A program made the translations under genes and the position numbers. Shown here one piece after another: positions 28,456 to 37,338 of a DNA stretch of 64,000 nt (positions within the stretch are counted from its first letter, which is position 1; each line of letters begins with the position of its first letter). This stretch comes from a phage: sequence record PZ386975.1. One strand, given 5' to 3'. The notes below the pieces were generated by a model. That model worked only from the letters and a program-made list of their open reading frames with translations. It ran no database searches and was not told the origin of the DNA.

Positions 28456-29871
28456 ATGAGCGAATTATTCAAACATGCGCACCTTCATGCAGGTCGAACT
28501 GAAAATGGTGCTGTAAACCATACTTCATCAATGTCTGCTCTTGTAGACTTTTACAAAGCTGCTGGTTCTAGCCGTAGCAATGTAGAAATCTTACCAGACT
28601 TGTTCTACAAAGCTTTGCATGAGGATGTTGATGTTGCAGTTCGTATTTTACTGCATATGCGAGATGTACGAGAAGGTATGGGTGAGCGTAAAGCTTTCCG
28701 AACTGTTTTACTTCAAGCGATTGAAGATAAGATTTTAGAGCCTACACAGGTTCTTCGCATTATGGATAAGATTGCAGAACTTGGTCGTTTTGATGACTTC
28801 AAAATCTTCGTAGGTACTCGTTTTGAGACAGATGCCTTCAAACATTTAGAAGCAGCATTACTAGACCCTGCAACAGCAGGTTTAGCAGCTAAGTGGTTGC
28901 CACGAGTAAAACCACGCCACAAACATTTTGTAAAACGTTTCTGTAAGTTTGCAAACTTAAGCGAGAAAGAGTACCGCACACTGTTATCTGCACTGTCTGA
29001 TACGGTTGAGCAAAAAATCTCTGCTAATGAGTTTGGTAAGATTGACTACAGCAAGATTCCTTCACTCGCTGCTGCACGTTACCAAAAACTCTTTAACCGT
29101 AAAGATGGAGAACGTTACAAAGCTTACATCGAATCACTCTCAAAGGGTGAGGCTAAGATTAACGCTGGTGCTGTTTACCCATACGATGTGATTAAGTCTA
29201 TCAAGCATGGTAATGCAGATGTTGCCAATGAGCAGTGGAAAGCACTACCAAACTGGATGGCAGAAGGTGAGAACATTCTGTGTATGACCGATGTTTCAAG
29301 CTCAATGTCTTGGGTGAATCTTGGTTCAATCACTGCCCTTGATATTGGTGTATCACTTGCCTTGTATGTAGCAGAACGCAATACTGGTTGTTTTAAGAAT
29401 GAGTTAATGGTTTACTCAACAAACCCTCACTTCATCGAACTGAGTGGTGATTTACGAAACCGTCATCGTCAGGTGATGCGTCATGTTGAATATGGCTCAA
29501 CTAACTTACAAGCAGCTTTTGACCGTATTCTTGAGATAGGTAAAAGAAACAACTTGACTCAGAAAGATATGCCAAGTAAGCTTATCATCTTCTCCGATAT
29601 GGAGTTCAATCAGGTTGATGGTGCTAACGGTCGTACAAACTTTGAAGCAATTCAGAGTAAGTACAAAAAAGCTGGATATGAGATGCCACAACTGGTATTC
29701 TGGTACTTAGCAAACCGTAATGGCACTTGCGAAGTATCTGTTAAGGATAACGGTGTAGCAATGGTATCTGGTTTCTCTCCAGCCACTTTAAAAGCTCTGC
29801 TTGGTGGTGAGAAGTTTGACCCAATCAGCGTAATGCTCAAAGCAGTAATGATTGACCGTTATATCTGGTAA
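28456..29871 (+). CDS. vWA-domain protein with helical N-terminal region (Ro60/TROVE-vWA-like architecture)
   Basis: MIDAS-like DxSxS motif (CMTDVSSSMS) at about aa 275; 471 aa; upstream of the tRNA/structured-RNA cluster. Confidence 0.5.
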   Translation: MSELFKHAHLHAGRTENGAVNHTSSMSALVDFYKAAGSSRSNVEILPDLFYKALHEDVDVAVRILLHMRDVREGMGERKAFRTVLLQAIEDKILEPTQVLRIMDKIAELGRFDDFKIFVGTRFETDAFKHLEAALLDPATAGLAAKWLPRVKPRHKHFVKRFCKFANLSEKEYRTLLSALSDTVEQKISANEFGKIDYSKIPSLAAARYQKLFNRKDGERYKAYIESLSKGEAKINAGAVYPYDVIKSIKHGNADVANEQWKALPNWMAEGENILCMTDVSSSMSWVNLGSITALDIGVSLALYVAERNTGCFKNELMVYSTNPHFIELSGDLRNRHRQVMRHVEYGSTNLQAAFDRILEIGKRNNLTQKDMPSKLIIFSDMEFNQVDGANGRTNFEAIQSKYKKAGYEMPQLVFWYLANRNGTCEVSVKDNGVAMVSGFSPATLKALLGGEKFDPISVMLKAVMIDRYIW

Positions 29872-29888
29872 AAAGTTTTAAAAAGGGT

Positions 29889-29917
29889 ATTGACAATGTG
29901 TTTGATACCCTTTAATA
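29889..29917 (+). promoter_or_regulatory. near-consensus sigma70-like promoter (TTGACA-17-TAATAT) embedded in a palindrome AAAGGGTAT..ATACCCTTT
   Basis: -35 at 29889-29894, -10 at 29912-29917; second candidate with TTGACA at 29981. Confidence 0.5.
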
Positions 29918-30036
29918 TGTTCTACATAGAAACGAAATGAGAGCTTTTCTAAGATACTGAAAAATATTTTAAAAAAGTTCTTGACAACCACTAAAAAATA
30001 ATGTTAAAGTGGTTACATAGAGTTTGAAAAGTTTAT

Positions 30037-30113
30037 CTCTGTTTAGCTCAGCTTGGTAGAGCGTTCCGTTTGGGGCGGTAAGGCCGGAGGTTCAAGTCCT
30101 CCAACAGAGACCA
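30037..30113 (+). tRNA. tRNA-Pro (anticodon UGG)
   Basis: acceptor CTCTGTT/AACAGAG, T-arm GGAGGTTCAAGTCCTCC, encoded CCA. Confidence 0.6.
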
Positions 30114-30130
30114 AATTTAAAGGGGTTACT

Positions 30131-30487
30131 ATGAGATTTTTAAAAGAATGTCCAGTTCATGGTTTAACTGAACATAGCATTCATAAGAATGGTAACGCCG
30201 GTAATAGAGTAAATTGTCTAAAATGTTGTGCATTAAGGACAAAACTTAGAGAGGATGCCAATAGGGAGAAAGCATACAAGTTTTATGGCGATAGTTGCAA
30301 AATTTGTGGCTATAATAAATGTAAAAATGCTTTAGAATGGCATCACCTTAACCCAAACGAAAAAGAGAATACACCATCAAAAATTATGGGTGCATCTTGG
30401 GAAAAGGTTAAAAAAGAACTTGATAAATGTGTTTTGCTCTGTGCTAATTGCCACAGAGAGGTTCATAGTGGAATTACAACGGTTTAA
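30131..30487 (+). CDS. HNH endonuclease
   Basis: Cys-rich Zn motifs (CLKCC, CKICG) and WHHLNPNEK...CANCHREVH HNH core; start moved to ATG 30131 because the track ORF overlaps tRNA-Pro. Confidence 0.75.
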   Translation: MRFLKECPVHGLTEHSIHKNGNAGNRVNCLKCCALRTKLREDANREKAYKFYGDSCKICGYNKCKNALEWHHLNPNEKENTPSKIMGASWEKVKKELDKCVLLCANCHREVHSGITTV

Positions 30488-30488
30488 T

Positions 30489-30563
30489 GTCGTAGAAGGC
30501 AAATGGTTAGCCACCTGACCTTCAATCAGTTGCTCGCAGGTTCGAATCCTGTCTACGACACCA
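30489..30563 (+). tRNA. tRNA, anticodon uncertain (loop CCTTCAA, possibly UUC/Glu)
   Basis: acceptor GTCGTAG/CTACGAC, T-arm GCAGGTTCGAATCCTGT, CCA. Confidence 0.45.
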
Positions 30564-30567
30564 GTTT

Positions 30568-30646
30568 TGACAGAAGACCAATTACAGCAAACTTAATCTT
30601 ATTCATCTGAAGGTAAATCGGACAAAGAAGAGATTTGGTCTGGTCA
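30568..30646 (+). ncRNA. structured RNA element Y1: conserved bulged helix (outer 4 bp TGAC/GTCA, internal loop AGA opposite G, inner AGACCAA/TTGGTCT)
   Basis: inverted repeat with covarying outer helix; shares motif CAGAAGACC..TACAGCAA with three paralogs. Confidence 0.4.
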
Positions 30647-30655
30647 TTAAGAATT

Positions 30656-30731
30656 GCGGGTATAGAGAAAGGGCGTCTCACATGTCTCATTAGCATGGTA
30701 TCGGCAGGTTCGACTCCTGCACCCGCCTCCA
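30656..30731 (+). tRNA. tRNA with anticodon CAU (Met or Ile2)
   Basis: anticodon stem CATGT/GCATG with loop CTCATTA; T-arm GCAGGTTCGACTCCTGC; acceptor has one mismatch. Confidence 0.45.
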
Positions 30732-30734
30732 ATT

Positions 30735-30800
30735 TTGCAGAAGACCGTATTCAGCAACAAACTACTTTTTGCGGATAAAAGAAAAAACACGGTCTGGCAA
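30735..30800 (+). ncRNA. structured RNA element Y2 (outer TTGC/GCAA, inner AGACCGT/ACGGTCT)
   Basis: same bulged-helix architecture as Y1 with compensatory changes. Confidence 0.4.
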
Positions 30801-30808
30801 TGTATTAA

Positions 30809-30885
30809 GGTTAGGAAGCACATAAGGTATGTGCGGTCGCCTGTTAAGCGAATGGCACAGGGTTCGAATCCCTGACTAACCGCCA
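30809..30885 (+). tRNA. tRNA-Asn (GUU)
   Basis: anticodon loop CTGTTAA, T-arm CAGGGTTCGAATCCCTG, G73, CCA. Confidence 0.55.
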
Positions 30886-30954
30886 AATTTAGGAGAGAAG
30901 CGATTGCTCACCGATTTGTAAGGTGCAAGTCCTTAGCCTGAATAGAAATTAAAT

Positions 30955-31042
30955 GTGTCGTTATCCCGTAGATGGTAGCGGTGGGGACTGTAAATCCCTT
31001 GTCATTGAGACTCGGTAGGTTCGACTCCTACACGGCACACCA
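30955..31042 (+). tRNA. tRNA-Tyr (GUA), long variable arm
   Basis: anticodon arm GGGGACTGTAAATCCCT; 88 nt; acceptor GTGTCGT/ACGGCAC. Confidence 0.6.
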
Positions 31043-31047
31043 ATAAA

Positions 31048-31125
31048 GGTTATGTAGTTTAATTTGGTTAAAATACTCCCCTGTCACGGGAGATGATGAG
31101 GGTTCAAATCCCTTCGTAACCGCCA
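31048..31125 (+). tRNA. tRNA-Asp (GUC)
   Basis: anticodon stem CTCCC/GGGAG with loop CTGTCAC; CCA. Confidence 0.6.
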
Positions 31126-31151
31126 ATTTTGAGAGGGCTATTTAGCCCCTC

Positions 31152-31186
31152 CCTTAAAGGGTTCTTACGAGTATCCTTTAAAGGAG
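31152..31186 (+). repeat. conserved palindromic hairpin CCTTAAAGGGTTCTTACGAGTATCCTTTAAAGG
   Basis: related copies at 34182-34208 and 32003-32030. Confidence 0.5.
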
Positions 31187-31265
31187 CAGAAGACCAAATA
31201 CAGCAAGAACGTATGAAAATTTCAAGCCAATTTAATTTTGAAAAATTTAAAACTTGGTCTGGCTC
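31184..31265 (+). ncRNA. structured RNA element Y3 (outer GAGC/GCTC, inner AGACCAA/TTGGTCT)
   Basis: same bulged-helix architecture. Confidence 0.4.
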
Positions 31266-31272
31266 AACAAAT

Positions 31273-31409
31273 TTACAGAAGACCGTTTACAGCAAAACTT
31301 AAACAATCTATTTCTCGGTAAAGAAAAGGCGAAGGTTCGATTCCTTCACTCGGCAGATGTCGAGTTGGTGTAATGGTAGCACTTAAGATGATAAACAACG
31401 GTCTGGTAA
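31273..31409 (+). ncRNA. structured RNA element Y4 (outer TTAC/GTAA, inner AGACCGTT/AACGGTCT) enclosing a circularly permuted tRNA-like module; Y-RNA/YrlA-like candidate
   Basis: T-arm GAAGGTTCGATTCCTTC (31331-31347), then 3' acceptor strand ACTCGGC, 5-nt linker, 5' acceptor strand GTCGAGT and D-arm TGGTGTAATGGTAGCAC. Confidence 0.45.
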
Positions 31410-31553
31410 TTATCTTTGTAGATAAGTTATTAAGCTTACCTGTGAGTATGCGACCACAAAGGGTGAAAGGGTAAATTCTAGATTTAAACCCAAAAAGGCA
31501 CATCGCTACAGACCTTAAGCAAGTCTGGGTAGCTTATCTACAAAGATAATTTA
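31405..31553 (+). repeat. 19-bp perfect inverted repeat TAATTATCTTTGTAGATAAG / CTTATCTACAAAGATAATT flanking about 108 nt
   Basis: arms at about 31405-31425 and 31534-31553, between Y4 and tRNA-Lys. Confidence 0.55.
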
Positions 31554-31555
31554 AT

Positions 31556-31631
31556 GGAAGTGTAGCAGAATGGTGATGCGGCAGACTTTTAATCTGACAG
31601 GCGATGGGTTCGAATCCCTCCACTTCTACCA
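31556..31631 (+). tRNA. tRNA-Lys (UUU)
   Basis: anticodon loop CTTTTAA; acceptor GGAAGTG/CACTTCT; paralog of tRNA at 32785. Confidence 0.5.
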
Positions 31632-31635
31632 AAAT

Positions 31636-31712
31636 GGTTCAGTCGCAGATAAGGTAATTCAAGGGTCTCATAAGACCTATGAATGTGGGTTCGATTCCCA
31701 TCTGAACCTCCA
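31636..31712 (+). tRNA. tRNA with anticodon CAU (Met or Ile2)
   Basis: acceptor GGTTCAG/CTGAACC, loop CTCATAA, T-arm GTGGGTTCGATTCCCAT. Confidence 0.5.
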
Positions 31713-31714
31713 AT

Positions 31715-31789
31715 TGTGGGTTAGCATAAATGGTAATGCAAACGGCTGATAACCGTTAGAAGAGGGTTCGATACCCTCACCTACAACCA
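31715..31789 (+). tRNA. tRNA-Ile (GAU)
   Basis: D-stem GCAT/ATGC, anticodon stem AACGG/CCGTT with loop CTGATAA. Confidence 0.6.
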
Positions 31790-31804
31790 ATTTCAATAAA
31801 GTTG

Positions 31805-31833
31805 TTGACATTGAGATGTGACTACTTTATAGT
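31805..31833 (+). promoter_or_regulatory. sigma70-like promoter TTGACA-17-TATAGT inside the tRNA cluster
   Basis: -35 at 31805-31810, -10 at 31828-31833. Confidence 0.5.
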
Positions 31834-32036
31834 AACCTTAGTTTTCGTTGCGTAGCGTCTATTTTGCAAATTTAAAATAAATGCAAACGACAATGTTTTT
31901 CTGGCAGTAGCTTGATAGGCTAAACACCAGTGAGGTCTTCCAATCCCTCATCAAAGAATTTGGCGTACTAGCCCACGGTATGATTAATAAAGTGGGCATC
32001 TTTAAGGGCTTTCTAAGAGAGTCTTTAAAGATTAAT

Positions 32037-32113
32037 GCACCCTTAGTTCAATTGGATAGAGCAACGGTCTTCTAAATCGTTAGTTACAGGTTCGAATCCT
32101 GTAGGGTGTACCA
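32037..32113 (+). tRNA. tRNA-Arg (UCU)
   Basis: anticodon loop CTTCTAA, T-arm ACAGGTTCGAATCCTGT. Confidence 0.6.
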
Positions 32114-32256
32114 ATTTAGTTAGCAGAATACTTAGACGACCTAAGCGGGTCTTCCTGTAGGGAGGTGGTCTGTATCTCATGTTTTCCAGAACATGTAAAT
32201 AATCTGAGAAGGGGCTTTACAGTGTTGAGATAATACGGTAAGCTTCGAATTATAGT

Positions 32257-32339
32257 ATGGGACGATGTTAAGACTCTAAGGCATGAGCAACGGATTCCAA
32301 CACCGTTTCAAAGGGGTTCAACTCCTCCGTCCCATGCCA
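32257..32339 (+). tRNA. atypical tRNA (83 nt, enlarged D region), anticodon possibly CCA (Trp)
   Basis: acceptor ATGGGAC/GTCCCAT perfect; anticodon region AACGG-ATTCCAACA-CCGTT. Confidence 0.4.
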
Positions 32340-32352
32340 AAGTCTTATTAGG

Positions 32353-32442
32353 GGTAGGTAGCGGCTAATGGTAGCCAAACTGTCTTGAAAACAGTTGCCA
32401 CTGTAGAGATACGGTGAGGGTTCGACTCCTTTACTTACCGCC
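32353..32442 (+). tRNA. tRNA-Ser (UGA), long variable arm
   Basis: anticodon stem ACTGT/ACAGT with loop CTTGAAA; 90 nt. Confidence 0.55.
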
Positions 32443-32698
32443 TAATAAGATTTTAAAGCCAAGCTTCATTCGGATGTTGCTTTGGTATCCCTCGTGTATT
32501 GTCGTACACACAGATAAAGCACCTAGTAGGTGTCACGGAGAAGAGATAATATCAAGCTCTCCAAAGGTTCTAGTCACCGGATTAAACAAGACTATGCAAA
32601 GACCTTTTTAGGTCTTTTTAGAGGGCTTCTAAGGTTATTACAGCTTGTTGTGGAACCTTGTTGCTTAGGTTCTTAGAAGTTCTCTAAAAAGATTTAAT

Positions 32699-32777
32699 GG
32701 GAGATTGACGGCAACTTGGTAGACCTATCTCGCTTAGAACGAGATGCTTGAGGGTTCGAATCCCTTGTCTCCTACCA
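32699..32777 (+). tRNA. tRNA with anticodon UAG (Leu-type) but short variable arm
   Basis: anticodon stem TCTCG/CGAGA with loop CTTAGAA; T-arm GAGGGTTCGAATCCCTT. Confidence 0.45.
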
Positions 32778-32784
32778 AATTAAT

Positions 32785-32860
32785 GCAGGTGTAGCAAAAT
32801 GGTTATGCGGCTGACTCTTAATCAGTAAGACGATGGGTTCAATTCCCTCCACCTGTACCA
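32785..32860 (+). tRNA. tRNA-Lys (CUU)
   Basis: anticodon loop CTCTTAA; paralog of 31556. Confidence 0.5.
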
Positions 32861-32866
32861 GACATT

Positions 32867-32943
32867 GGGGATGTAGTTTACATGGTTAAAACATAAGTTT
32901 TGCAAACTTAAGTACAGGGTTCAATTCCCTGCTTCTCCACCAA
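32867..32943 (+). tRNA. tRNA-Ala (UGC)
   Basis: D-stem GTTT/AAAC, anticodon stem TAAGT/ACTTA with loop TTTGCAA. Confidence 0.55.
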
Positions 32944-32949
32944 TTAGTG

Positions 32950-33023
32950 CATCCATAGTTTAAACGGGAAAATTACAGTCTTCCAAACTGAGGTTGAGGG
33001 TTCGATTCCCTCTGGATGCTCCA
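32950..33023 (+). tRNA. tRNA-Gly (UCC)
   Basis: acceptor GCATCCA/TGGATGC perfect; loop CTTCCAA. Confidence 0.55.
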
Positions 33024-33029
33024 AACAAT

Positions 33030-33106
33030 GCTGCTTTCGTATAATTGGCTATTACACATCCCTTGTAAGGATGGAAATGCAGGTTCGAGTCCTGTGAGCA
33101 GCACCA
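33030..33106 (+). tRNA. tRNA-Thr (UGU)
   Basis: anticodon stem CATCC/GGATG with loop CTTGTAA. Confidence 0.6.
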
Positions 33107-33109
33107 ATT

Positions 33110-33170
33110 CAGAGGTCAAGTGAAAGACCGCTGGTGTCAACTGAAGACCGTAACAAATTCCACGGAGTTG
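33110..33170 (+). ncRNA. fifth, more divergent stem-loop element containing the GAAGACCGT motif
   Basis: outer inverted repeat AGAGGTC/GACCTCT enclosing ..CTGAAGACCGTAACAAA.. Confidence 0.3.
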
Positions 33171-33201
33171 AGTTAGCGGCACAACTTCAGACCTCTTTCA
33201 T

Positions 33202-33276
33202 ACTCGCTTAGTTTATATGGTAAAACACCACCCTTACAAGATGAAGAAAAAGGTTCAAGTTCTTTAGTGAGTACCA
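33202..33276 (+). tRNA. tRNA, anticodon uncertain (loop CTTACAA, possibly UAC/Val)
   Basis: acceptor ACTCGCT/AGTGAGT, D-stem GTTT/AAAC; weak anticodon stem. Confidence 0.4.
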
Positions 33277-33277
33277 T

Positions 33278-33355
33278 GTTCCAGTATCCCAATTGGCAGA
33301 GGATGCAAGCTCAAACCTTGTACTAGTGACGGTTCGAATCCGTCTTGGAACACCA
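33278..33355 (+). tRNA. tRNA with anticodon CAA (Leu-type) but short variable arm
   Basis: anticodon stem GCAAG/CTTGT with loop CTCAAAC; T-arm GACGGTTCGAATCCGTC. Confidence 0.45.
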
Positions 33356-33374
33356 ATTTTAAGAGGCTATTTAG

Positions 33375-33932
33375 ATGAGATACTTAAAGTATGCTTCATG
33401 GATTTTCTTAGCTTTGTTAGAGCCATTTGCAGCAATCTTAGCAGTTATCTTAGCACCTTTTGTAGTTCCATTCTACAGTGAGAAGAAAGGACACTTACCT
33501 TTCGGGTTCAGATGGATGGAGACATATGACAACCCAATTGATGGTGATGAAGGTCACGTTAAAAGATGGGCTAATATTAGATGGATTGGTAAGCTGGGTG
33601 TCTACATGCAGAGAGTTGGATGGCTCTGGAGAAACAAAGCTTATAATTTCTCTTACCATGTATTAGGAAGAGATGTAAAAGATGTTACTAAGTGGAAAGG
33701 TAATATCAACGTAAGTTCTGACCCTGAAGATAATCAGACTGGTTATCTCCTAATGTGGAACAGTAATGCTTGGGGATTATTCGCTTTTATTCCGTCAATT
33801 AAAATCTTTGGTAAACAGTTTTACTGGAGAATTTATGTTGGATGGAAACTAAAAAGTGTTGTCCCAGAAGAAAGAGCATTCTCAAGGGAAAGAGTTATGT
33901 TGGCATTCTTTATTCATCCGCTGAGAAAGTAA
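33375..33932 (+). CDS. hypothetical integral membrane protein (185 aa) embedded in the tRNA cluster
   Basis: RBS AAGAGG; N-terminal hydrophobic helices; Trp-rich. Confidence 0.55.
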   Translation: MRYLKYASWIFLALLEPFAAILAVILAPFVVPFYSEKKGHLPFGFRWMETYDNPIDGDEGHVKRWANIRWIGKLGVYMQRVGWLWRNKAYNFSYHVLGRDVKDVTKWKGNINVSSDPEDNQTGYLLMWNSNAWGLFAFIPSIKIFGKQFYWRIYVGWKLKSVVPEERAFSRERVMLAFFIHPLRK

Positions 33933-33940
33933 AGATTTAA

Positions 33941-34016
33941 AGGGGATTAGTTTACAAGGTTAAAACCTCGGTCTTTGAAATCGAAGAAGTTGGTTCAATT
34001 CCAACATCCCCCGCCA
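33941..34016 (+). tRNA. tRNA-Gln (UUG)
   Basis: anticodon loop CTTTGAA; weak 1-72 pair. Confidence 0.55.
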
Positions 34017-34018
34017 AT

Positions 34019-34096
34019 GCTCCATTACTCCAATTGGCAGAGAGGCCAGACTTAAAATCTGTGTTATGTATCGGTTCGAATCCGATATGGAGTACC
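34019..34096 (+). tRNA. tRNA with anticodon UAA (Leu-type) but short variable arm
   Basis: anticodon loop CTTAAAA; T-arm ATCGGTTCGAATCCGAT. Confidence 0.45.
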
Positions 34097-34101
34097 AATT
34101 T

Positions 34102-34177
34102 TAGCGGTATAGCATAACTGGCAATGCAACAGTCTCTGAAGCTGTCCTATTAAGGTTCAAATCCTTATGCCGCTGCC
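34102..34177 (+). tRNA. tRNA-Gln (CUG)
   Basis: D-stem GCAT/ATGC, anticodon stem ACAGT/GCTGT with loop CTCTGAA. Confidence 0.55.
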
Positions 34178-34209
34178 ACTTCTAAGGATTCTTACGAGAG
34201 TCCTTAAAT

Positions 34210-34285
34210 GTGGCCTTATCATAAATGGTAATGACCCATGCTGTGAACATGGTCTATACGGGTTCGACTCCCGTAGGTCACCCCA
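34210..34285 (+). tRNA. tRNA-His (GUG)
   Basis: anticodon stem CCATG/CATGG with loop CTGTGAA; discriminator C73. Confidence 0.6.
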
Positions 34286-34291
34286 ATTTAT

Positions 34292-34367
34292 AGTCCAAGT
34301 AGCTTATATGGTTAAAGCGCGTGTCTGAAAAACATGAGAAGAGGGTTCAAATCCCACTGGACTACCA
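34292..34367 (+). tRNA. tRNA-Phe (GAA)
   Basis: D-stem GCTT/AAGC, anticodon loop CTGAAAA; acceptor boundaries approximate. Confidence 0.5.
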
Positions 34368-34383
34368 ATTTCAAAGGTGCTTA

Positions 34384-35118
34384 ATGAAAGAGATGACAGA
34401 ACAAGGTAAGGAGATTTTTAATCTCTTAAAAACCGGTAAAGGGTTTTCTAACCCACTTATTACTGGTGCAGCAGTTCTCGGTGGAACCGTAGCTGCCTCT
34501 ACATCACTTGTAAGCTCCATTAGCTCTGTAACAGACCCTACAATGAAGGAGAAGCTTGTTGCTGCTGGACTTACAACAGTCCTTCTAAACAGCTTTACAA
34601 CAAGCCTGACAAGCACTACAGCAACTACTAAGACCCTAACAGACTATGGTCAAAAGTCTATTGATGAGTTTTCATCACGTATGCAGGTAGCAAAGGGGTA
34701 TTCCAATGTTATGGGTGCAGCAGGAGAACAAGTTGGTTGTACACCATTCAGTGGTATTATGGGTGTTGCTACAGAGTATGGTCAAAAAGCTATTGACATG
34801 ATGAACAGTACACTAGATAGTGTTAACGGTGTGTTAAGTGACTTACAAGACGCTATTGATAAGGGTCTTGCTACTGTTTCTGATTTAGCTAATCAGGCTG
34901 TTAGTAAGATTAATGAAGGTATCTCAAAGATTACAGCTTATGCAGATGAAGTTGTGCAGATGATTGAAGAAGAAGCTGCCCTTATTGCAGAGTACCTTAA
35001 AACGAATATCAATGGGTTCTTAGCAGGTATCTTACCAGACTGGTTTGATGATGCTTGTAAAACTGGTGTAATCGACACTATTGCAACACCAGAAATGAAG
35101 AACGCATTACAGAAATAA
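34384..35118 (+). CDS. hypothetical Ser/Thr/Ala-rich protein (244 aa)
   Basis: start moved to ATG 34384 (RBS AGGTG) because the track ORF start overlaps tRNA-Phe. Confidence 0.5.
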   Translation: MKEMTEQGKEIFNLLKTGKGFSNPLITGAAVLGGTVAASTSLVSSISSVTDPTMKEKLVAAGLTTVLLNSFTTSLTSTTATTKTLTDYGQKSIDEFSSRMQVAKGYSNVMGAAGEQVGCTPFSGIMGVATEYGQKAIDMMNSTLDSVNGVLSDLQDAIDKGLATVSDLANQAVSKINEGISKITAYADEVVQMIEEEAALIAEYLKTNINGFLAGILPDWFDDACKTGVIDTIATPEMKNALQK

Positions 35119-35119
35119 T

Positions 35120-35212
35120 GGAAGATTAACCCTAAAAGGTAAGGGAGCAGTTTGCTAAACTGCCAGTAGCTGAGAAATCGGTGTACCAGTTCAAGTCTGG
35201 TATCTTCCTCCA
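35120..35212 (+). tRNA. tRNA-Ser (GCU), long variable arm
   Basis: acceptor GGAAGAT/ATCTTCC, anticodon stem GCAGT/ACTGC with loop TTGCTAA; 93 nt. Confidence 0.6.
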
Positions 35213-35216
35213 ATTT

Positions 35217-35292
35217 GAATCCGTGACAGAAATGGATATGTGCCTGTCTGCAAAACAGGTTTATAAGGGTTCAAGTCCCTTCGGATTCTCCA
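35217..35292 (+). tRNA. tRNA-Cys (GCA)
   Basis: acceptor GAATCCG/CGGATTC perfect, anticodon stem CCTGT/ACAGG with loop CTGCAAA, U73, CCA. Confidence 0.65.
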
Positions 35293-35514
35293 AGTTATTT
35301 TACTCTCTCTCAATTAAAATAATAATAATGCCCTGCTATAAGTATTCTTCCTTTCGCTACCGAAGAGTATTTTTAGACAGGGCTTTTTTACAGAGTTATA
35401 CTTTATAGGAAGACTTATACAGTATGTCTCTGACGTACATTGTGGTTTCTCCTTGACGGTCTCTGTGCCGTCTTTTTTAAGGGGAAACAAGATTTATTAT
35501 TTGGAGAAAACATA

Positions 35515-35715
35515 ATGAGCGAGAACGTTTATAAAGAACTTTATGAAGCTAACAAGAAGTTAGAGTTTATGCAGAATACTATCATGGCAATTGCAGATAG
35601 ATTATCTGTAGCAACAGGTATTGATATTAAAGAAGCATCTATGGATGCACTTCTTGATGCTGTTGATGCAAAGTTCGAAGTTAAGAAAGAAGAGACTGCT
35701 ACAGACTCTGAATAA
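35515..35715 (+). CDS. hypothetical small acidic protein (66 aa) immediately upstream of terminase
   Basis: ATG 35515 with RBS TGGAGAAAA; longer track ORF start lacks an RBS. Confidence 0.4.
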   Translation: MSENVYKELYEANKKLEFMQNTIMAIADRLSVATGIDIKEASMDALLDAVDAKFEVKKEETATDSE

Positions 35716-35736
35716 TTCTATTTGCGGAGGCGCTTA

Positions 35737-37338
35737 ATGGACTTAAATGCTGTTAAGCAGAAGCGAGTGGAAGATGTTAGGAAAGTCCTAGCTGGAGAGT
35801 TGGGGCTTTCTGATGAAGTAAAAGAAATTATCAAATCATTCGGTAAAGACCCCTCTAAATTCCTTCCAACTCAAATTCTGACTTTATTAAGATACACACC
35901 AGACCAAGTTCGCCTTATCTTTAAATTGATGACTGATAAGAACTATGTAGCTCCTCAGCCGGGTTCTCAAGAGGTCTTTTTAAACACTAATGCTGACTTG
36001 GTTCTCTATGGTGGTGCTGCTGGTGCTGGTAAGACTGCTGCATTGTTAATGGACTCTCTAAGATTTATTGAAGACCCTAACTATAATGCTGTGTATTTCC
36101 GTCGAAACACAACACAGTTACAAGGTGGTTTATGGCCTGCTGCAAAGAAACTATTTGGTAAGTTTGGTGGGATTCCTCACGAGCAGAAAATGACTATCAC
36201 ATTCCCTTCTGGGGCAACTATCAAGTTTACCTACCTAGAACTTGAAAAGCACGCTGAAGGTCATCAGGGTATTGAATACTCAGCTATTTACTTTGACGAA
36301 GGTACACACTTCTCTGCTTCACAGATTTCATACCTACAAACACGTCTTCGTTCTGGTGCTGAAGGTGATTCATACATGAAAATTTCCATGAACCCAGACA
36401 GAGACCACTTTATTTATGATTGGGTAGAACCATTCTTAGATGAAGAAGGTTATCCAGACCCTGAAAAGTGTGGTCGTATTCGTTGGTATGTAATGAATGA
36501 TGGTGTGATGGTTTCTGATTGGGAGAGAGACAAGATTCTTGAAATGTTCCCTCTTGAGATTCCTCAAACATACACCTTCATCTCTGGTACGATTGATGAT
36601 AACCCAATTCTTGACTTCTTAGAACCTAAGTACCGTGGTAAGTTGGAAAACAACACCCCTGTAAACGTTGCAAGGCTTCGCTTCGGTAACTGGAAAGCTC
36701 GTGCAGAAGGTTCAAACTATTGGCAAAGACAATGGTGTGAGATTGTTGATTCACTCCCAGAGGATGTATTTGATGTTAGAGCATGGGACTTAGCAGCAAC
36801 TTTACCATCTGAAATTAACCCTAATCCAGACTGGACAGCAGGTGTTAAGATGGGTAAATCTAAAAAAGACGGTTGCTATTATATCATTGATGTAGTAAGA
36901 TTTAGAGATAGACCCTCTGGAGTCGAAACACAAATTAATTTGACTGCTGAAAGTGACGGTAAGCGAACTGGTATTTTTATCCCTCAAGACCCAGGCGCTG
37001 CTGGTAAATCCTACGCAACATCCCTCATCAGGAAACTTGCCGAGAAAGGCTATCGTGCAAGAGCTAAACCAACAAATAAAGATAAAGTTACCCGATTTGC
37101 GGGGTTTTCTGCTGCTTCTGAAGCTGGACTTGTAAAAGTTTTGAGAGGTAGTTGGAACGAAGCTTATTTCCAAGAGCTTGAAGGTTTTTGTGGTGATGGC
37201 AAAACTAAAGATGACCAAGTGGATGCTACCAGTGATGCTTTCAACAGTCTTAACGAAGTTAAATTATTCAAGCCACCATCAATGGGTGCTCACACAGACT
37301 TAGTGAGAGGAAACCCATATGAGGGGCTTAGACGTTGA
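35737..37338 (+). CDS. terL: terminase large subunit
   Basis: Walker A VLYGGAAGAGKTAAL, Walker B-like IYFDEGTH; ATG 35737 with RBS GCGGAGG (track start is TTG). Confidence 0.85.
   Translation: MDLNAVKQKRVEDVRKVLAGELGLSDEVKEIIKSFGKDPSKFLPTQILTLLRYTPDQVRLIFKLMTDKNYVAPQPGSQEVFLNTNADLVLYGGAAGAGKTAALLMDSLRFIEDPNYNAVYFRRNTTQLQGGLWPAAKKLFGKFGGIPHEQKMTITFPSGATIKFTYLELEKHAEGHQGIEYSAIYFDEGTHFSASQISYLQTRLRSGAEGDSYMKISMNPDRDHFIYDWVEPFLDEEGYPDPEKCGRIRWYVMNDGVMVSDWERDKILEMFPLEIPQTYTFISGTIDDNPILDFLEPKYRGKLENNTPVNVARLRFGNWKARAEGSNYWQRQWCEIVDSLPEDVFDVRAWDLAATLPSEINPNPDWTAGVKMGKSKKDGCYYIIDVVRFRDRPSGVETQINLTAESDGKRTGIFIPQDPGAAGKSYATSLIRKLAEKGYRARAKPTNKDKVTRFAGFSAASEAGLVKVLRGSWNEAYFQELEGFCGDGKTKDDQVDATSDAFNSLNEVKLFKPPSMGAHTDLVRGNPYEGLRR

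What the first reader, a model, noticed from the sequence alone, without database searches (positions are those of the whole stretch)
30037..35292. Large tRNA cluster (about 26 genes) with unusual members, interrupted by an HNH endonuclease, a membrane protein and internal promoters
About 26 tRNAs cover most amino acids and most encode CCA. Three tRNAs with leucine-type anticodons (UAG 32699, CAA 33278, UAA 34019) appear to have short variable arms, unlike bacterial type-II tRNA-Leu. One tRNA (32257) is 83 nt with an enlarged D region and possible CCA anticodon, and two tRNAs carry CAU. An HNH endonuclease gene starts 18 nt after tRNA-Pro and ends 1 nt before the next tRNA, a homing-endonuclease-like insertion.
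Basis: seen in the sequence. Interest (0 to 1): 0.55.

Follow-up and report, generated by a model that had tools for sequence, protein, structure and literature searches.

The report
Phage tRNA island hiding Y-like RNAs
This is the well-known transfer-RNA gene cluster of a Felix O1-type phage, with odd tRNAs and a mobile nuclease gene as reported, but its spacers also hold four unannotated small RNA genes that look like partners of the Ro60-like protein encoded just upstream.

Summary
The window is a Felixounavirus, 95-97% identical to phages Meda and nataliec. Positions 30037-35292 hold 26 tRNA genes: 24 by ARAGORN, a tRNA-Glu found only by Rfam, and an atypical 83-nt tRNA-Trp. Together they cover all 20 amino acids, and 25 encode CCA.

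- **tRNA-Leu:** all three have 5-7 nt variable loops (type I). This recurs in T5-like and KVP40-like phages, so it is not unique here.
- **HNH gene:** it is sporadic (1 of 30 related loci) and travels with a divergent tRNA-Glu allele, as expected for a free-standing homing endonuclease.
four spacers (30568-30646, 30735-30800, 31184-31265, 31273-31409) are paralogous structured RNAs. They share a covarying bulged closing helix and a single-stranded U-N-CAGCAA motif. The longest holds a circularly permuted tRNA-like module (T arm, closed acceptor hairpin, D arm), the layout of bacterial Y RNA YrlA.
- **Partner protein:** the units lie 0.7-1.5 kb downstream of a DUF2828 protein whose predicted fold matches Ro60.
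- **Distribution:** similar tandem units flank DUF2828 genes in Listeria, Staphylococcus, Enterococcus, Rhizobium, Campylobacter, Aeromonas and Mycobacterium phages.

Binding and function are inferred, not shown.

The parts
28456..29871 (+). Ro60-like protein gene (DUF2828 + DUF7788 / vWA), proposed protein partner of the Y-like RNAs
   Evidence: Pfam PF11443, PF25043 and weak VWA_2. AlphaFold2 model has pLDDT 88.8. The top 12 Foldseek PDB hits are all Ro60 or Rsr, aligned over the full length. phmmer finds no PDB homologue by sequence.
29890..29918 (+). sigma-70-like promoter (TTGACA-17-TAATAT) upstream of the cluster
   Evidence: part of the repeat family D11
29981..30010 (+). sigma-70-like promoter (TTGACA-18-TAAAGT, with TG) upstream of tRNA-Pro
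30037..30113 (+). tRNA-Pro(UGG)
30131..30487 (+). free-standing HNH endonuclease gene (118 aa)
   Evidence: Pfam HNH at 22.2 bits, cut-off 21.4. Present in 1 of 30 related loci. Felix O1 carries three HNH genes at other inter-tRNA sites.
30489..30563 (+). tRNA-Glu(UUC), HNH-linked variant allele with anticodon loop CCUUCAA (C33) and A73
   Evidence: Rfam 55.4 bits; missed by ARAGORN. Found only in genomes that carry this HNH gene. About 60% identical to the usual allele.
30568..30646 (+). Y-like RNA unit U1 (short)
   Evidence: repeat families D7 and D14; fold; covariation; model R1 at 38.5 bits
30655..30731 (+). tRNA(CAU), U73
30735..30800 (+). Y-like RNA unit U2 (short)
   Evidence: model R1 at 43 bits. 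A compensatory G-C to A-U change in the outer helix separates the window from nataliec.
30809..30885 (+). tRNA-Asn(GUU)
30955..31042 (+). tRNA-Tyr(GUA), long variable arm
31048..31125 (+). tRNA-Asp(GUC)
31184..31265 (+). Y-like RNA unit U3 (short)
31273..31409 (+). Y-like RNA unit U4, YrlA-type. Components: closing helix, UACAGCAA, V hairpin 31308-31329, T arm 31331-31347, closed acceptor hairpin 31348-31365, D arm 31367-31383.
   Evidence: MFE fold, z = -2.2. RNAalifold on 10 orthologues gives three different acceptor-hairpin stems, all paired. Present in 253 phage records, almost always unannotated. No Rfam YrlA hit at E<=10.
31406..31554 (+). conserved structured spacer closed by a 24-bp stem, function unknown
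   Evidence: z = -5.95; 94.6-100% identical in 21 loci
31556..31631 (+). tRNA-Lys(UUU)
31636..31712 (+). tRNA(CAU), U73, G30.A40 mismatch in this allele
31715..31789 (+). tRNA-Ile(GAU)
31805..31833 (+). internal sigma-70-like promoter (TTGACA-17-TATAGT, 11 of 12 matches)
   Evidence: the surrounding spacer is 90.7-99.6% conserved
32037..32113 (+). tRNA-Arg(UCU)
   Evidence: present in only some relatives
32257..32339 (+). atypical tRNA-Trp(CCA): 8-bp acceptor stem, 4-bp T stem, about 9-nt connector before a 3-bp D stem, anticodon loop UUCCAAC (CUCCAAA in most relatives), G73
   Evidence: Conserved in 24 loci. Compensatory changes in the anticodon stem, T stem and D helix. Not called by ARAGORN or Rfam.
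32353..32442 (+). tRNA-Ser(UGA), long arm, 3' end CCU rather than CCA
32699..32777 (+). type-I tRNA-Leu(UAG), 5-nt variable loop, A73
32785..32860 (+). tRNA-Lys(CUU)
32867..32942 (+). tRNA-Ala(UGC)
32949..33023 (+). tRNA-Gly(UCC)
33030..33106 (+). tRNA-Thr(UGU)
33105..33201 (+). conserved long hairpin spacer containing CUGAAGACCGUAAC, possibly a degenerate relative of the U units
   Evidence: z = -3.6; 93.9-100% identical in 28 loci
33202..33276 (+). tRNA-Val(UAC)
33278..33355 (+). type-I tRNA-Leu(CAA), short variable loop, A73, D loop AAUUGGCAGA
33375..33932 (+). conserved DUF7338 membrane-type protein gene
   Evidence: Pfam E = 2e-61
33941..34016 (+). tRNA-Gln(UUG)
34019..34097 (+). type-I tRNA-Leu(UAA), 6-7 nt variable loop, A73
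34103..34178 (+). tRNA-Gln(CUG)
34210..34285 (+). tRNA-His(GUG)
34292..34367 (+). tRNA-Phe(GAA)
34384..35118 (+). conserved DUF7217 protein gene
   Evidence: Pfam E = 1e-87
35120..35212 (+). tRNA-Ser(GCU), long arm
35217..35292 (+). tRNA-Cys(GCA)
35455..35480 (+). terminator-like hairpin plus T run after the cluster

Best explanation
The region is the RNA-gene island of a Felix O1-type myovirus. It appears to be transcribed rightward from sigma-70-like promoters at about 29890, 29981 and 31805, and to end at a terminator near 35455.

**tRNA genes.** It encodes 26 tRNAs that cover all 20 amino acids.
- Three tRNA-Leu lack the long variable arm but keep the E. coli-type Leu D loop and A73. They are most likely charged by host LeuRS.
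- One tRNA-Trp has an expanded connector before the D stem.

**HNH cassette.** A free-standing HNH homing endonuclease sits between tRNA-Pro and tRNA-Glu. It has brought with it a divergent tRNA-Glu allele, presumably one that resists cleavage.

**Y-like RNA genes.** Four spacers in the first third of the island are genes for small structured RNAs (U1-U4).
- Each unit is closed by a 4-bp outer helix, an AGA x G internal loop and a 7-bp inner helix (AGACCNN / NNGGUCU), followed by single-stranded U-N-CAGCAA.
- U4 additionally carries a circularly permuted tRNA-like module: V hairpin, T arm, closed acceptor hairpin, D arm.

**Inferred steps.**
- The units are released from the polycistronic precursor by the tRNA-processing enzymes that cut the flanking tRNAs.
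- The conserved helix and ACAGCAA motif is bound by the Ro60-like DUF2828 protein encoded immediately upstream, giving a phage Ro/Y-RNA-type particle.
- The variable RNA modules, including the tRNA mimic, direct this particle to tRNA- or RNA-metabolising partners. This would act in tRNA/RNA quality control or as a counter to host defence; the orthologous protein of phage Bas63 counters the Ppl system.

**What is shown and what is not.** Shown here: the sequences, folds, covariation, protein fold and gene linkage. Not shown: expression, binding and function.
For: - **tRNAs:**
- **Type-I Leu in every relative:**
- **HNH sporadic, with a divergent tRNA-Glu allele:**
- **U1-U4 are repeats:** the word CAGAAGACC occurs 5 times against 0.45 expected, and GAAGACC-N30-60-GGTCTGG occurs 3 times against 0 expected.
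- **Same closing fold in all four units:**
- **Covariation of the closing helix:** among 42 distinct versions from 31 genomes, five variable base pairs covary and stay paired in 41-42 of 42 versions (99.5% of cells). No shuffle out of 500 reaches the observed covariation score, and sliding the register collapses it.
- **U4 structure:** T and D arms are invariant or nearly so, and the acceptor hairpin has three different stems, all paired.
- **Protein fold:** Ro60-like.
- **Co-occurrence:** U4 is found in 253 phage records, about the same as the roughly 250 records that hold a close orthologue of the protein.
- **Distant phages:** in 14 distant DUF2828 loci, 37 helix+CAGCAA units lie on the gene strand against 6 on the other strand. 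Of these, 29 of 37 lie within 700 nt of the gene ends, which make up 11% of the sequence (p = 4e-21). Ten of the 14 loci are positive.
- **tRNA-like modules elsewhere:** long members in these phages fold into T / acceptor-hairpin / D modules. Several score below threshold against Rfam YrlA, at 37.9, 47.8 and 35.7 bits.
- **Literature:** Bas63 gp130 is Ro60-like and counters Ppl; its authors only speculate that Y RNAs hide among the tRNAs (PMC11482910). The YrlA layout and its linkage to Ro60 are described in PMC4201824. A Thermus phage Ro60 binds two phage-encoded Y-like RNAs (PMC12135203).
Against: - There is no expression or binding data for any of these RNAs.
- U4 gets no Rfam YrlA hit even at E<=10, and the YrlA/Ro60 5' motif GNCGAAN0-1G is absent.
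- The single-sequence fold z-scores of U1-U3 are weak, -1.3 to -1.9.
- The cross-phage scan required a 7-bp helix, so pairing inside that helix is circular. Only position, strand, the eighth pair and the inner modules are independent.
- Three DUF2828 phages (V09, Aeh1, GAP32) and one truncated IMG/VR locus (L033) gave no unit next to the gene with the strict pattern.
- A motif-first scan of IMG/VR returned mostly chance matches.
- E. coli LeuRS failed to charge a Streptomyces type-I tRNA-Leu in vitro (PMC6614811), so charging of the phage Leu tRNAs is not assured.
Confidence: 0.72

Rival explanations
1. The U1-U4 repeats are processing or insulator hairpins of the tRNA operon, such as RNase III or RNase E entry sites or spacers that help precursor folding. 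On this view they have no specific link to the upstream Ro60-like protein.
For: The units sit exactly between tRNAs. The island contains other long hairpins that look like processing sites. No binding data exist.
Against: A conserved single-stranded ACAGCAA and a conserved internal loop are not needed for a simple processing stem. U4 holds a complete T / acceptor-hairpin / D module. In phages where the DUF2828 gene is not inside a tRNA cluster (Staphylococcus S-CoN_Ph9, mycobacteriophage Nicholas, IMG/VR locus L031), the units follow the protein gene, not the tRNAs.
Confidence: 0.15
2. The repeats act at the DNA level, as operator or iteron sites for a DNA-binding protein, or as recombination or homing targets that shuffle tRNA cassettes.
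For: tRNA content and HNH positions vary between relatives. The repeats have invariant cores.
Against: Stem sequences change while pairing is kept, including G-U pairs, which only make sense in RNA. The units are strongly biased to the gene strand, 37 to 6. The T and D arms follow tRNA consensus.
Confidence: 0.04
3. The three short-arm Leu-anticodon tRNAs and/or the 83-nt Trp-like RNA are not decoding tRNAs. They would instead be decoys or baits for host tRNA-targeting nucleases or modification enzymes, or uncharged regulatory tRNA-like RNAs.
For: E. coli LeuRS did not charge a Streptomyces type-I tRNA-Leu (PMC6614811). The Trp-like RNA is not recognised by ARAGORN or by the Rfam tRNA model and has a non-canonical core. 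Phage tRNAs are known to evolve around anticodon nucleases (PMC10264068).
Against: All four keep CCA, the correct discriminator (A73 for Leu, G73 for Trp), canonical anticodon loops and compensatory stem changes. The Leu D loop AAUUGGCAGA and A14 reproduce the E. coli tRNA-Leu identity set listed in PMC6614811. Without the tRNA-Glu at 30489 and the Trp RNA at 32257 the set would cover only 18 amino acids; with them it covers all 20. Type-I Leu tRNAs are kept in three unrelated phage lineages.
Confidence: 0.2
4. U4 is a circularly permuted true tRNA gene. Its two halves would be joined through a circular intermediate, as in some algae, to give a functional tRNA.
For: The 3' half (T arm plus acceptor 3' strand) precedes the 5' half (acceptor 5' strand plus D arm).
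Against: No CCA or recognisable anticodon arm is present. The position of the anticodon stem is taken by the conserved bulged helix that is shared with the tRNA-less units U1-U3. The acceptor hairpin loop is only 4-8 nt long. The layout equals YrlA.
Confidence: 0.03

Closest known systems
tRNA gene cluster of Salmonella phage Felix O1 and other Felixounavirus genomes (NC_005282, nataliec, Meda)
   Same: Same locus, order and sequence at 94-97% identity. Same three 78-79 nt tRNA-Leu, the same conserved ORFs (DUF7338, DUF7217), and the same upstream DUF2828 gene, annotated 'RNA-binding protein'.
   Different: HNH genes sit at other inter-tRNA sites in Felix O1. This window has the rarer Pro/Glu insertion with the variant tRNA-Glu. 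tRNA-Arg(UCU) is present or absent depending on the genome. The Trp-like RNA and U1-U4 are unannotated in the records examined.
Bacterial Y RNAs YrlA and YrlB with Rsr (Ro60) of Salmonella Typhimurium and about 250 other bacteria and 22 phages (Chen et al. 2014, PMC4201824; Rfam RF02553)
   Same: Small RNAs lie on the same strand within a few kb of a Ro60-fold gene. There are several paralogues per locus that share only the terminal protein-binding stem. One of them has a V / T / closed-acceptor / D tRNA mimic in which the T and D arms are conserved and the acceptor hairpin covaries.
   Different: The protein is DUF2828, not a Pfam TROVE family member, and is recognisable as Ro60 only by fold. 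The conserved motif is a bulged AGACC helix plus ACAGCAA instead of GNCGAAN0-1G. There is no RF02553 hit for U4, and only sub-threshold hits for relatives in other phages. The genes are embedded in a tRNA operon.
Thermus phage phiLo Ro60 with Yrl1 and Yrl2 (PMC12135203; PDB 9KOP, 9L5Y)
   Same: A phage-encoded Ro60-fold protein with two adjacent phage-encoded Y-like RNAs. It is the best Foldseek hit of the window protein, at E = 1.5e-8.
   Different: The phiLo RNAs carry the CGAA motif and lie upstream of the gene. Their binding and a PNPase complex were shown experimentally, whereas nothing has been tested for the Felix O1 group.
Free-standing homing endonucleases in phage tRNA clusters (for example T4 SegB, from my own knowledge; HNH genes in the Felix O1 cluster)
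   Same: A small nuclease ORF is wedged between tRNA genes. Its distribution among near-identical genomes is sporadic, and the flanking sequence is divergent on one side.
   Different: SegB is a GIY-YIG enzyme. Cleavage specificity and homing of this HNH protein are untested.
Type-I (short variable loop) tRNA-Leu of Streptomyces coelicolor and of mitochondria (PMC6614811)
   Same: Leu anticodon with a 5-nt variable loop, coexisting in one cell with type-II tRNA-Leu.
   Different: The phage tRNAs keep A73 and the E. coli-type D loop. The host LeuRS is of the E. coli type, which failed on the Streptomyces type-I tRNA. The same trait recurs in T5-like and KVP40-like phages, but not in T2.

Membership tests
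YrlA (Rfam RF02553, bacterial tRNA-mimic Y RNA) | Encoded within about 4 kb of a Ro60 orthologue, on the same strand | tested here: met
   U1-U4 start 0.7-1.4 kb downstream of the DUF2828 gene, on the same strand. The protein is Ro60-like by fold only.
YrlA (Rfam RF02553, bacterial tRNA-mimic Y RNA) | Internal module in the order V, T arm, closed acceptor stem-loop, D arm, with T and D conserved and the acceptor stem variable | tested here: met
   U4: RNAalifold on 10 orthologues gives three alternative acceptor stems, all paired. U1-U3 lack the module, as YrlB does.
YrlA (Rfam RF02553, bacterial tRNA-mimic Y RNA) | 5' motif GNCGAAN0-1G (putative Ro60 contact) | tested here: not met
   The 5' strand is (R)CAGAAGACC followed by U-N-CAGCAA. 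There is only a loose resemblance (CAGAAG against CGAAG).
YrlA (Rfam RF02553, bacterial tRNA-mimic Y RNA) | Score at or above the Rfam gathering threshold (69 bits) | tested here: not met
   No hit on U4 at E<=10. Relatives in Nicholas and PEF1 reach 37.9 and 47.8 bits.
YrlA (Rfam RF02553, bacterial tRNA-mimic Y RNA) | Physical association with the Ro60 protein; tRNA-type modifications | not testable with these tools
   Requires RIP, EMSA and modification mapping.
Ro60 / TROVE protein family | HEAT-repeat ring plus C-terminal vWA domain | tested here: met
   AlphaFold2 model (pLDDT 88.8, pTM 0.89) aligns over its full length to 12 Ro60 structures, TM 0.45-0.65, E from 1.5e-8 to 2.3e-6.
Ro60 / TROVE protein family | Sequence membership (Pfam TROVE, or detectable similarity to solved Ro60 structures) | tested here: not met
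   Pfam gives DUF2828, DUF7788 and VWA_2 only. phmmer against the PDB finds no Ro60.
Free-standing HNH homing endonuclease | HNH catalytic motif | tested here: met
   PF01844 at 22.2 bits against a cut-off of 21.4; the best-scoring stretch (residues 94-113) did not pass the E-value limit on its own, so the match is marginal; CxxC ... CANCH motifs are visible in the translation.
Free-standing HNH homing endonuclease | Sporadic presence at a precise intergenic site among close relatives | tested here: met
   1 of 30 related loci. Only 3 of the 25 best-matching phage records listed cover 100% of the region; most of the others cover 90-92%. The tRNA-Pro flank is identical and the tRNA-Glu flank is replaced.
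Free-standing HNH homing endonuclease | Cleaves the endonuclease-less allele and is preferentially inherited | not testable with these tools
   Needs cleavage and co-infection assays.
Type-I tRNA-Leu | Leu anticodon with a variable loop of about 5 nt and no extra arm | tested here: met
   ARAGORN structures; lengths of 77-79 nt in all relatives.
Type-I tRNA-Leu | E. coli LeuRS identity set: A73, A14, the G18G19 position in the D loop, A15-U48 | tested here: met
   All three have A73. The D loop is A14 A15 Y U G18 G19 Y A G A after a 3-bp stem, as in E. coli tRNA-Leu. The identity set is the one listed in PMC6614811. U48 was read by eye only.
Type-I tRNA-Leu | Leucylated in the host | not testable with these tools
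   E. coli LeuRS failed on a Streptomyces type-I tRNA-Leu, so this needs an experiment.

The most novel reading that the evidence does not exclude
DUF2828 proteins and the helix+ACAGCAA RNAs would form a previously undescribed, pan-phage branch of the Ro60/Y-RNA system. It would be found from Felix O1-like coliphages to Listeria, Staphylococcus, Enterococcus, Bacillus, Rhizobium, Campylobacter, Aeromonas and Mycobacterium phages. It is typically placed in or beside the phage's tRNA island, and its tRNA-mimic member lets the particle guard, repair or masquerade as tRNA against host tRNA- or nucleic-acid-targeting defences. This would explain why the Bas63 orthologue counters Ppl.
Probability: 0.3. 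Interest if true: 0.8.

Novelty: new variant of a known kind. Interest (0 to 1): 0.6.

Why it matters
- **The tRNA cluster itself is ordinary.** It is already annotated in hundreds of Felix O1-like genomes.
- **The Y-like RNAs turn a speculation into a test.** The PhageMaP authors speculated that the Ro60-like anti-defence protein of these phages has Y-RNA partners hidden among the tRNAs. This work gives exact candidate genes, a conserved binding motif to mutate, and a phylogenetically broad family to compare.
- **Wider reach if confirmed.** It would extend Ro60/Y-RNA biology to a second, sequence-unrecognisable protein family that is common in phages, and it would link that family to tRNA islands and to defence evasion.
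- **The type-I tRNA-Leu genes raise a separate question.** Can an E. coli-type LeuRS, reported not to charge a type-I tRNA-Leu, charge these? If so, what selects for loss of the long arm in several phage lineages?

Tried and rejected
- **Rfam on the spacers:** a search of 29500-36000 at E<=1 and of U4 alone at E<=10 gave no named family for U1-U4. It returned only weak tmRNA, permuted-tmRNA and miRNA matches, which I regard as noise from tRNA-like arms.
- **Sequence search of the protein:** phmmer of the DUF2828 protein against PDB sequences found nothing relevant. Only the fold search worked.
- **Motif-first scan of IMG/VR:** the pattern AAGACNNNTTACAGCAA returned 80 loci, mostly chance matches. 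It became informative only after the helix was also required: 5 of 8 helix-closed matches lie next to DUF2828, against 0 of 72 others, and 3 of those 5 are Felixounavirus.
- **Shuffle control:** block-shuffling underestimates the background of the helix+CAGCAA pattern in real coding sequence. The window has 14 stray matches outside the island. I therefore relied on strand and position enrichment instead.
- **U4 as a permuted true tRNA gene:** rejected, because it has no CCA and no anticodon arm.
- **Promoters:** the total count of promoter-like matches is not above chance (13 against 12.0 expected). Only the three perfect -35 sites in spacers are worth noting.
- **Literature:** searches for DUF2828, Felix O1 with Y RNA, Ro-like phage ncRNA and phage type-I tRNA-Leu found no description of these RNAs or of the Leu feature. 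Two Wolin-laboratory reviews could not be read, so prior description cannot be excluded.

Full report
**Identity of the window**

The 5.3-kb region is 94-97% identical to Felixounavirus genomes such as Salmonella phage Meda and Escherichia phages nataliec and VpaE1. It matches 351 phage records in all. It lies between a 471-aa DUF2828/DUF7788/vWA gene (28456-29871) and the large terminase gene (35722-37338). The locus is therefore the long-known tRNA cluster of Felix O1-like phages.

**Check of the observation**

- ARAGORN tRNAs, all on the + strand.
- Rfam's tRNA model adds 30489-30560 at 55.4 bits.
It is nevertheless present at 85-99% identity in 24 related loci.
- An RNAalifold consensus of ten versions of that candidate shows compensatory changes in the anticodon stem (AACGG/CCGUU to GUAAG/CUUAC), in the T stem (G-C to U-A) and in a 3-bp D helix (CUC/GAG to CAC/GUG).
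- Most relatives have the anticodon loop CUCCAAA, and the discriminator is G. I recognise both as tRNA-Trp features from my own knowledge of the E. coli sequence.
- The acceptor stem has 8 bp and the T stem 4 bp, and about 9 nt separate the acceptor stem from the D helix. The candidate is therefore a conserved but non-canonical tRNA-Trp.
- With it and the tRNA-Glu, the set has 26 genes and covers all 20 amino acids. 25 of the 26 encode CCA.
- The three Leu-anticodon tRNAs are 78-79 nt with 5-7 nt variable loops, while Tyr and both Ser keep long arms.
- The two CAU tRNAs, the HNH spacing (18 nt after tRNA-Pro, 1 nt before the next tRNA) and the membrane-type ORF are all as described.

**The short-arm tRNA-Leu**

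All three have A73, a 3-bp D stem and a D loop of the form A14 A15 Y U G18 G19 Y A G A. This is the arrangement listed as the E. coli LeuRS recognition set: A73, A14, A15-U48 and the position of G18G19 (PMC6614811). Orthologues show compensatory anticodon-stem changes.

The trait is not special to this window. Every Ounavirinae locus examined has 77-79 nt Leu tRNAs. A KVP40-like Vibrio phage and a T5-like phage each have two 77-nt Leu tRNAs. T2 has an 87-nt type-II gene.

The one experimental paper found on a bacterial type-I tRNA-Leu reports that E. coli LeuRS could not charge the Streptomyces type-I species. Charging of the phage species is therefore likely from its identity elements, but it is not proven.

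**The HNH gene**

- The 118-aa ORF passes the Pfam HNH cut-off only marginally.
- It is found in only 1 of 30 related loci fetched. Among the 25 best-matching phage records listed, only Meda, nataliec and DE7 cover the whole region.
- Felix O1 itself has three HNH genes at other inter-tRNA positions.
- Upstream of the insertion, tRNA-Pro is identical to that of genomes without the HNH gene.
- Downstream, the usual tRNA-Glu (anticodon loop CUUUCAA, G73) is replaced by an allele about 60% identical, with loop CCUUCAA (C33) and A73. This allele occurs only in genomes that carry this HNH gene.
- This is the signature of a free-standing homing endonuclease cassette with a linked, presumably cleavage-resistant target allele. 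Cleavage itself is untested.

The spacers between tRNA-Glu and tRNA-Lys are not mere promoters. The repeat finder reports two repeat families, (R)CAGAAGACC-NNN-U-N-CAGCAA and AAAAC-N-GGTCTGG. The 9-mer CAGAAGACC occurs five times in the window against 0.45 expected, and four of those copies are here. Together the repeats bound four units:

| Unit | Coordinates |
|---|---|
| U1 | 30568-30646 |
| U2 | 30735-30800 |
| U3 | 31184-31265 |
| U4 | 31273-31409 |

Each unit folds with the same closure: a 4-bp outer helix, an AGA x G internal loop, and a 7-bp inner helix AGACCNN/NNGGUCU.

All four units are present in every Felixounavirus, Suspvirus and Mooglevirus locus examined. Among 42 distinct versions of the two ends:
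- The three variable outer pairs and the two variable inner pairs form standard pairs in 41-42 of 42 versions (99.5% of cells) and covary. Pair types include UA/GC, UA/AU/GC/GU, AU/GC/GU, GC/AU and UA/AU.
- No shuffle out of 500 reaches the observed covariation score.
- Sliding the register cuts pairing from 86% to 24-49%.
- The nucleotides U19 and C21-A26 (CAGCAA) after the helix are invariant.

**U4 is a tRNA mimic of the YrlA type**

Inside its closure U4 has these parts, in order:
- a hairpin (V);
- a perfect T arm, GAAGG-UUCGAUU-CCUUC;
- a hairpin in which an acceptor 3' strand pairs with an acceptor 5' strand across a 4-nt loop (ACUCGGC-AGAU-GUCGAGU);
- a D arm, GGUGU-AAUGGUA-GCACU.

Across genera the T and D arms are invariant or nearly so. 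The acceptor hairpin takes three different sequences, all paired: ACUCGGC/GUCGAGU, ACACG/CGUGU and ACCCUUC/GAAGGGU.

This is exactly the description of bacterial YrlA: T and D stem-loops nearly invariant, an intervening stem-loop conserved only in structure, an optional V hairpin, and genes within 4 kb of Ro60 on the same strand (PMC4201824). Rfam's YrlA model nevertheless finds nothing in U4, and the YrlA 5' motif GNCGAAN0-1G is replaced by the AGACC helix plus ACAGCAA. U4 works like a YrlA but fails two membership criteria, so I class it as a variant.

**The upstream protein**

- Pfam sees only DUF2828, DUF7788 and a weak vWA domain.
- Sequence search of the PDB finds nothing.
- An AlphaFold2 model built on 52 homologues (pLDDT 88.8, pTM 0.89) gives Ro60 structures as its top 12 Foldseek hits. 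These are Thermus phage phiLo, Xenopus, human and Deinococcus Rsr, aligned over the full length with TM 0.45-0.65.
- This confirms the statement in the PhageMaP preprint that Bas63 gp130 resembles Ro60. The same work shows that gp130 counters the Ppl defence, and it only speculates that some annotated tRNAs might be Y RNAs (PMC11482910).
- U4 occurs in 253 phage records, the same set size as the close orthologues of the protein, and it is almost never annotated.

**Generality across phages**

DUF2828 homologues (28-46% identity) occur in many phage groups, often annotated 'Ro-like RNA binding protein' and often beside tRNA clusters or RNA ligases.

- **Covariance model.** A model of U4 finds weak full-length matches next to these genes, for example in mycobacteriophage Nicholas and IMG/VR locus L031.
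- **Pattern scan.** I scanned for a 7-bp helix, then 2-4 nt, then CAGCAA, with the 3' strand within 150 nt. It finds tandem sets, usually three, directly flanking the gene on its own strand. Positive phages are Listeria P100, Staphylococcus S-CoN_Ph9, Enterococcus PEF1, Rhizobium RHph_I1_18, Campylobacter F370, Aeromonas LAh_8, Bacillus Chewbecca, Nicholas and two IMG/VR phages.
- **Statistics.** Over 14 loci there are 37 units on the gene strand and 6 on the other. 29 of the 37 lie within 700 nt of the gene ends, which make up 11% of the sequence (p = 4e-21).
- **Check independent of the selection rule.** The eighth outward pair forms in 24 of 34 units against 38% expected. The next position pairs in only 6 of 34, which indicates a conserved helix end.
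- **Family consensus.** A-R-G-A-C-N-C-U-U-ACAGCAA ... G-N-G-U-C-U-(U)-G.
- **tRNA-like members.** One or two members per phage fold into T / acceptor-hairpin / D modules. Some reach sub-threshold YrlA scores of 37.9, 47.8 and 35.7 bits against a gathering score of 69.
- **Negatives.** V09, Aeh1, GAP32 and one truncated IMG/VR locus (L033) were negative next to the gene with this strict pattern.

**Mechanism**

Shown here: the sequences, folds, covariation, protein fold and linkage.

Inferred:
- The units are co-transcribed with the tRNAs from the promoters at about 29890, 29981 and 31805.
- They are released by RNase P and 3' processing of the flanking tRNAs; the gaps to the neighbouring tRNAs are 4-9 nt.
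- The shared bulged helix and ACAGCAA is the binding site of the Ro60-like protein, as the shared stem is for Ro60 on Y RNAs.
- The variable modules, including the tRNA mimic, bring in other factors. By analogy, these would be PNPase in Deinococcus and in Thermus phage phiLo, or tRNA enzymes for YrlA.
- A role in tRNA/RNA surveillance or in blocking a host defence is plausible, given the Ppl phenotype and the recurrent neighbourhood of tRNAs, RNA ligases, tmRNA and ROOL-like RNA. This remains speculation.

**Novelty and verdict**

The tRNA cluster, its HNH insertions and the type-I tRNA-Leu genes are in public records, though the Leu feature seems undiscussed in the library searched. The Y-like RNAs of DUF2828 phages are absent from Rfam 15 and from the papers I could search, so I rate the whole as a new variant of a known kind (Ro60/Y RNA). 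Interest is moderate to fairly high because it makes a published speculation directly testable. It is limited by the absence of any expression or binding evidence.

Noticed in passing
window 31406-31554: A 149-nt spacer between U4 and tRNA-Lys folds into a multi-hairpin RNA closed by a 24-bp stem (z = -5.95). It is 94.6-100% identical in 21 related loci. Its function is unknown and it has no Rfam match.
   Followed up: partly
window 31150-31180, 31997-32032, 34182-34206: Three copies of a hairpin of the type UAAGGR-UUCUUACGAG-WRUCCUUUA with a conserved loop lie in spacers of the island. They may be processing or protein-binding sites.
   Followed up: no
window 32608-32695 and 33105-33201: Two long, strongly stable hairpins (z = -4.2 and -3.6) are conserved across three genera. 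The second contains CUGAAGACCGUAAC, which resembles the 5' end of the U units, and may be a degenerate fifth unit.
   Followed up: partly
window 30489-30563: The HNH-linked tRNA-Glu allele has C at position 33 (loop CCUUCAA) instead of the near-universal U33, and A73 instead of G73. ARAGORN does not call it.
   Followed up: partly
window 30655-30731 and 31636-31712: Both CAU-anticodon tRNAs have U73. The second has a G.A mismatch in the anticodon stem in this genome, whereas relatives have G-C there. Whether they are Met or lysidine-modified Ile tRNAs is unresolved.
   Followed up: no
window 31790-32036: A 247-nt spacer that is 90.7-99.6% conserved holds the best internal promoter match (31805-31833) and a structured leader. 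Rfam gives only weak tmRNA-like scores there (16-32 bits, below threshold).
   Followed up: partly
L049:1404-1754 (Enterococcus phage PEF1) and L044:3426-3977 (Listeria phage P100): The RNA islands beside DUF2828 genes in other phages also hold a tmRNA (149.7 bits) and a ROOL-like RNA (86 bits, below the 99.1 threshold). P100 tRNAs score on the + strand of the locus although the record annotates them on the other strand.
   Followed up: no
L037 (Aeromonas phage LAh_8) 4446-5957: Seven helix+CAGCAA units lie in the 1.5 kb upstream of the DUF2828 gene (an eighth lies at 989). Several overlap annotated small ORFs and the annotated start of the gene, which suggests mis-annotated coding sequences.
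   Followed up: no
L039, L037, L047 (GAP32, LAh_8, Rhizobium phage): RNA ligase genes (Rnl1/Rnl2-type) lie directly upstream of, or within a few kb of, the DUF2828 gene. GAP32 also has a tRNA nucleotidyltransferase nearby, which hints at an RNA-repair context.
   Followed up: no
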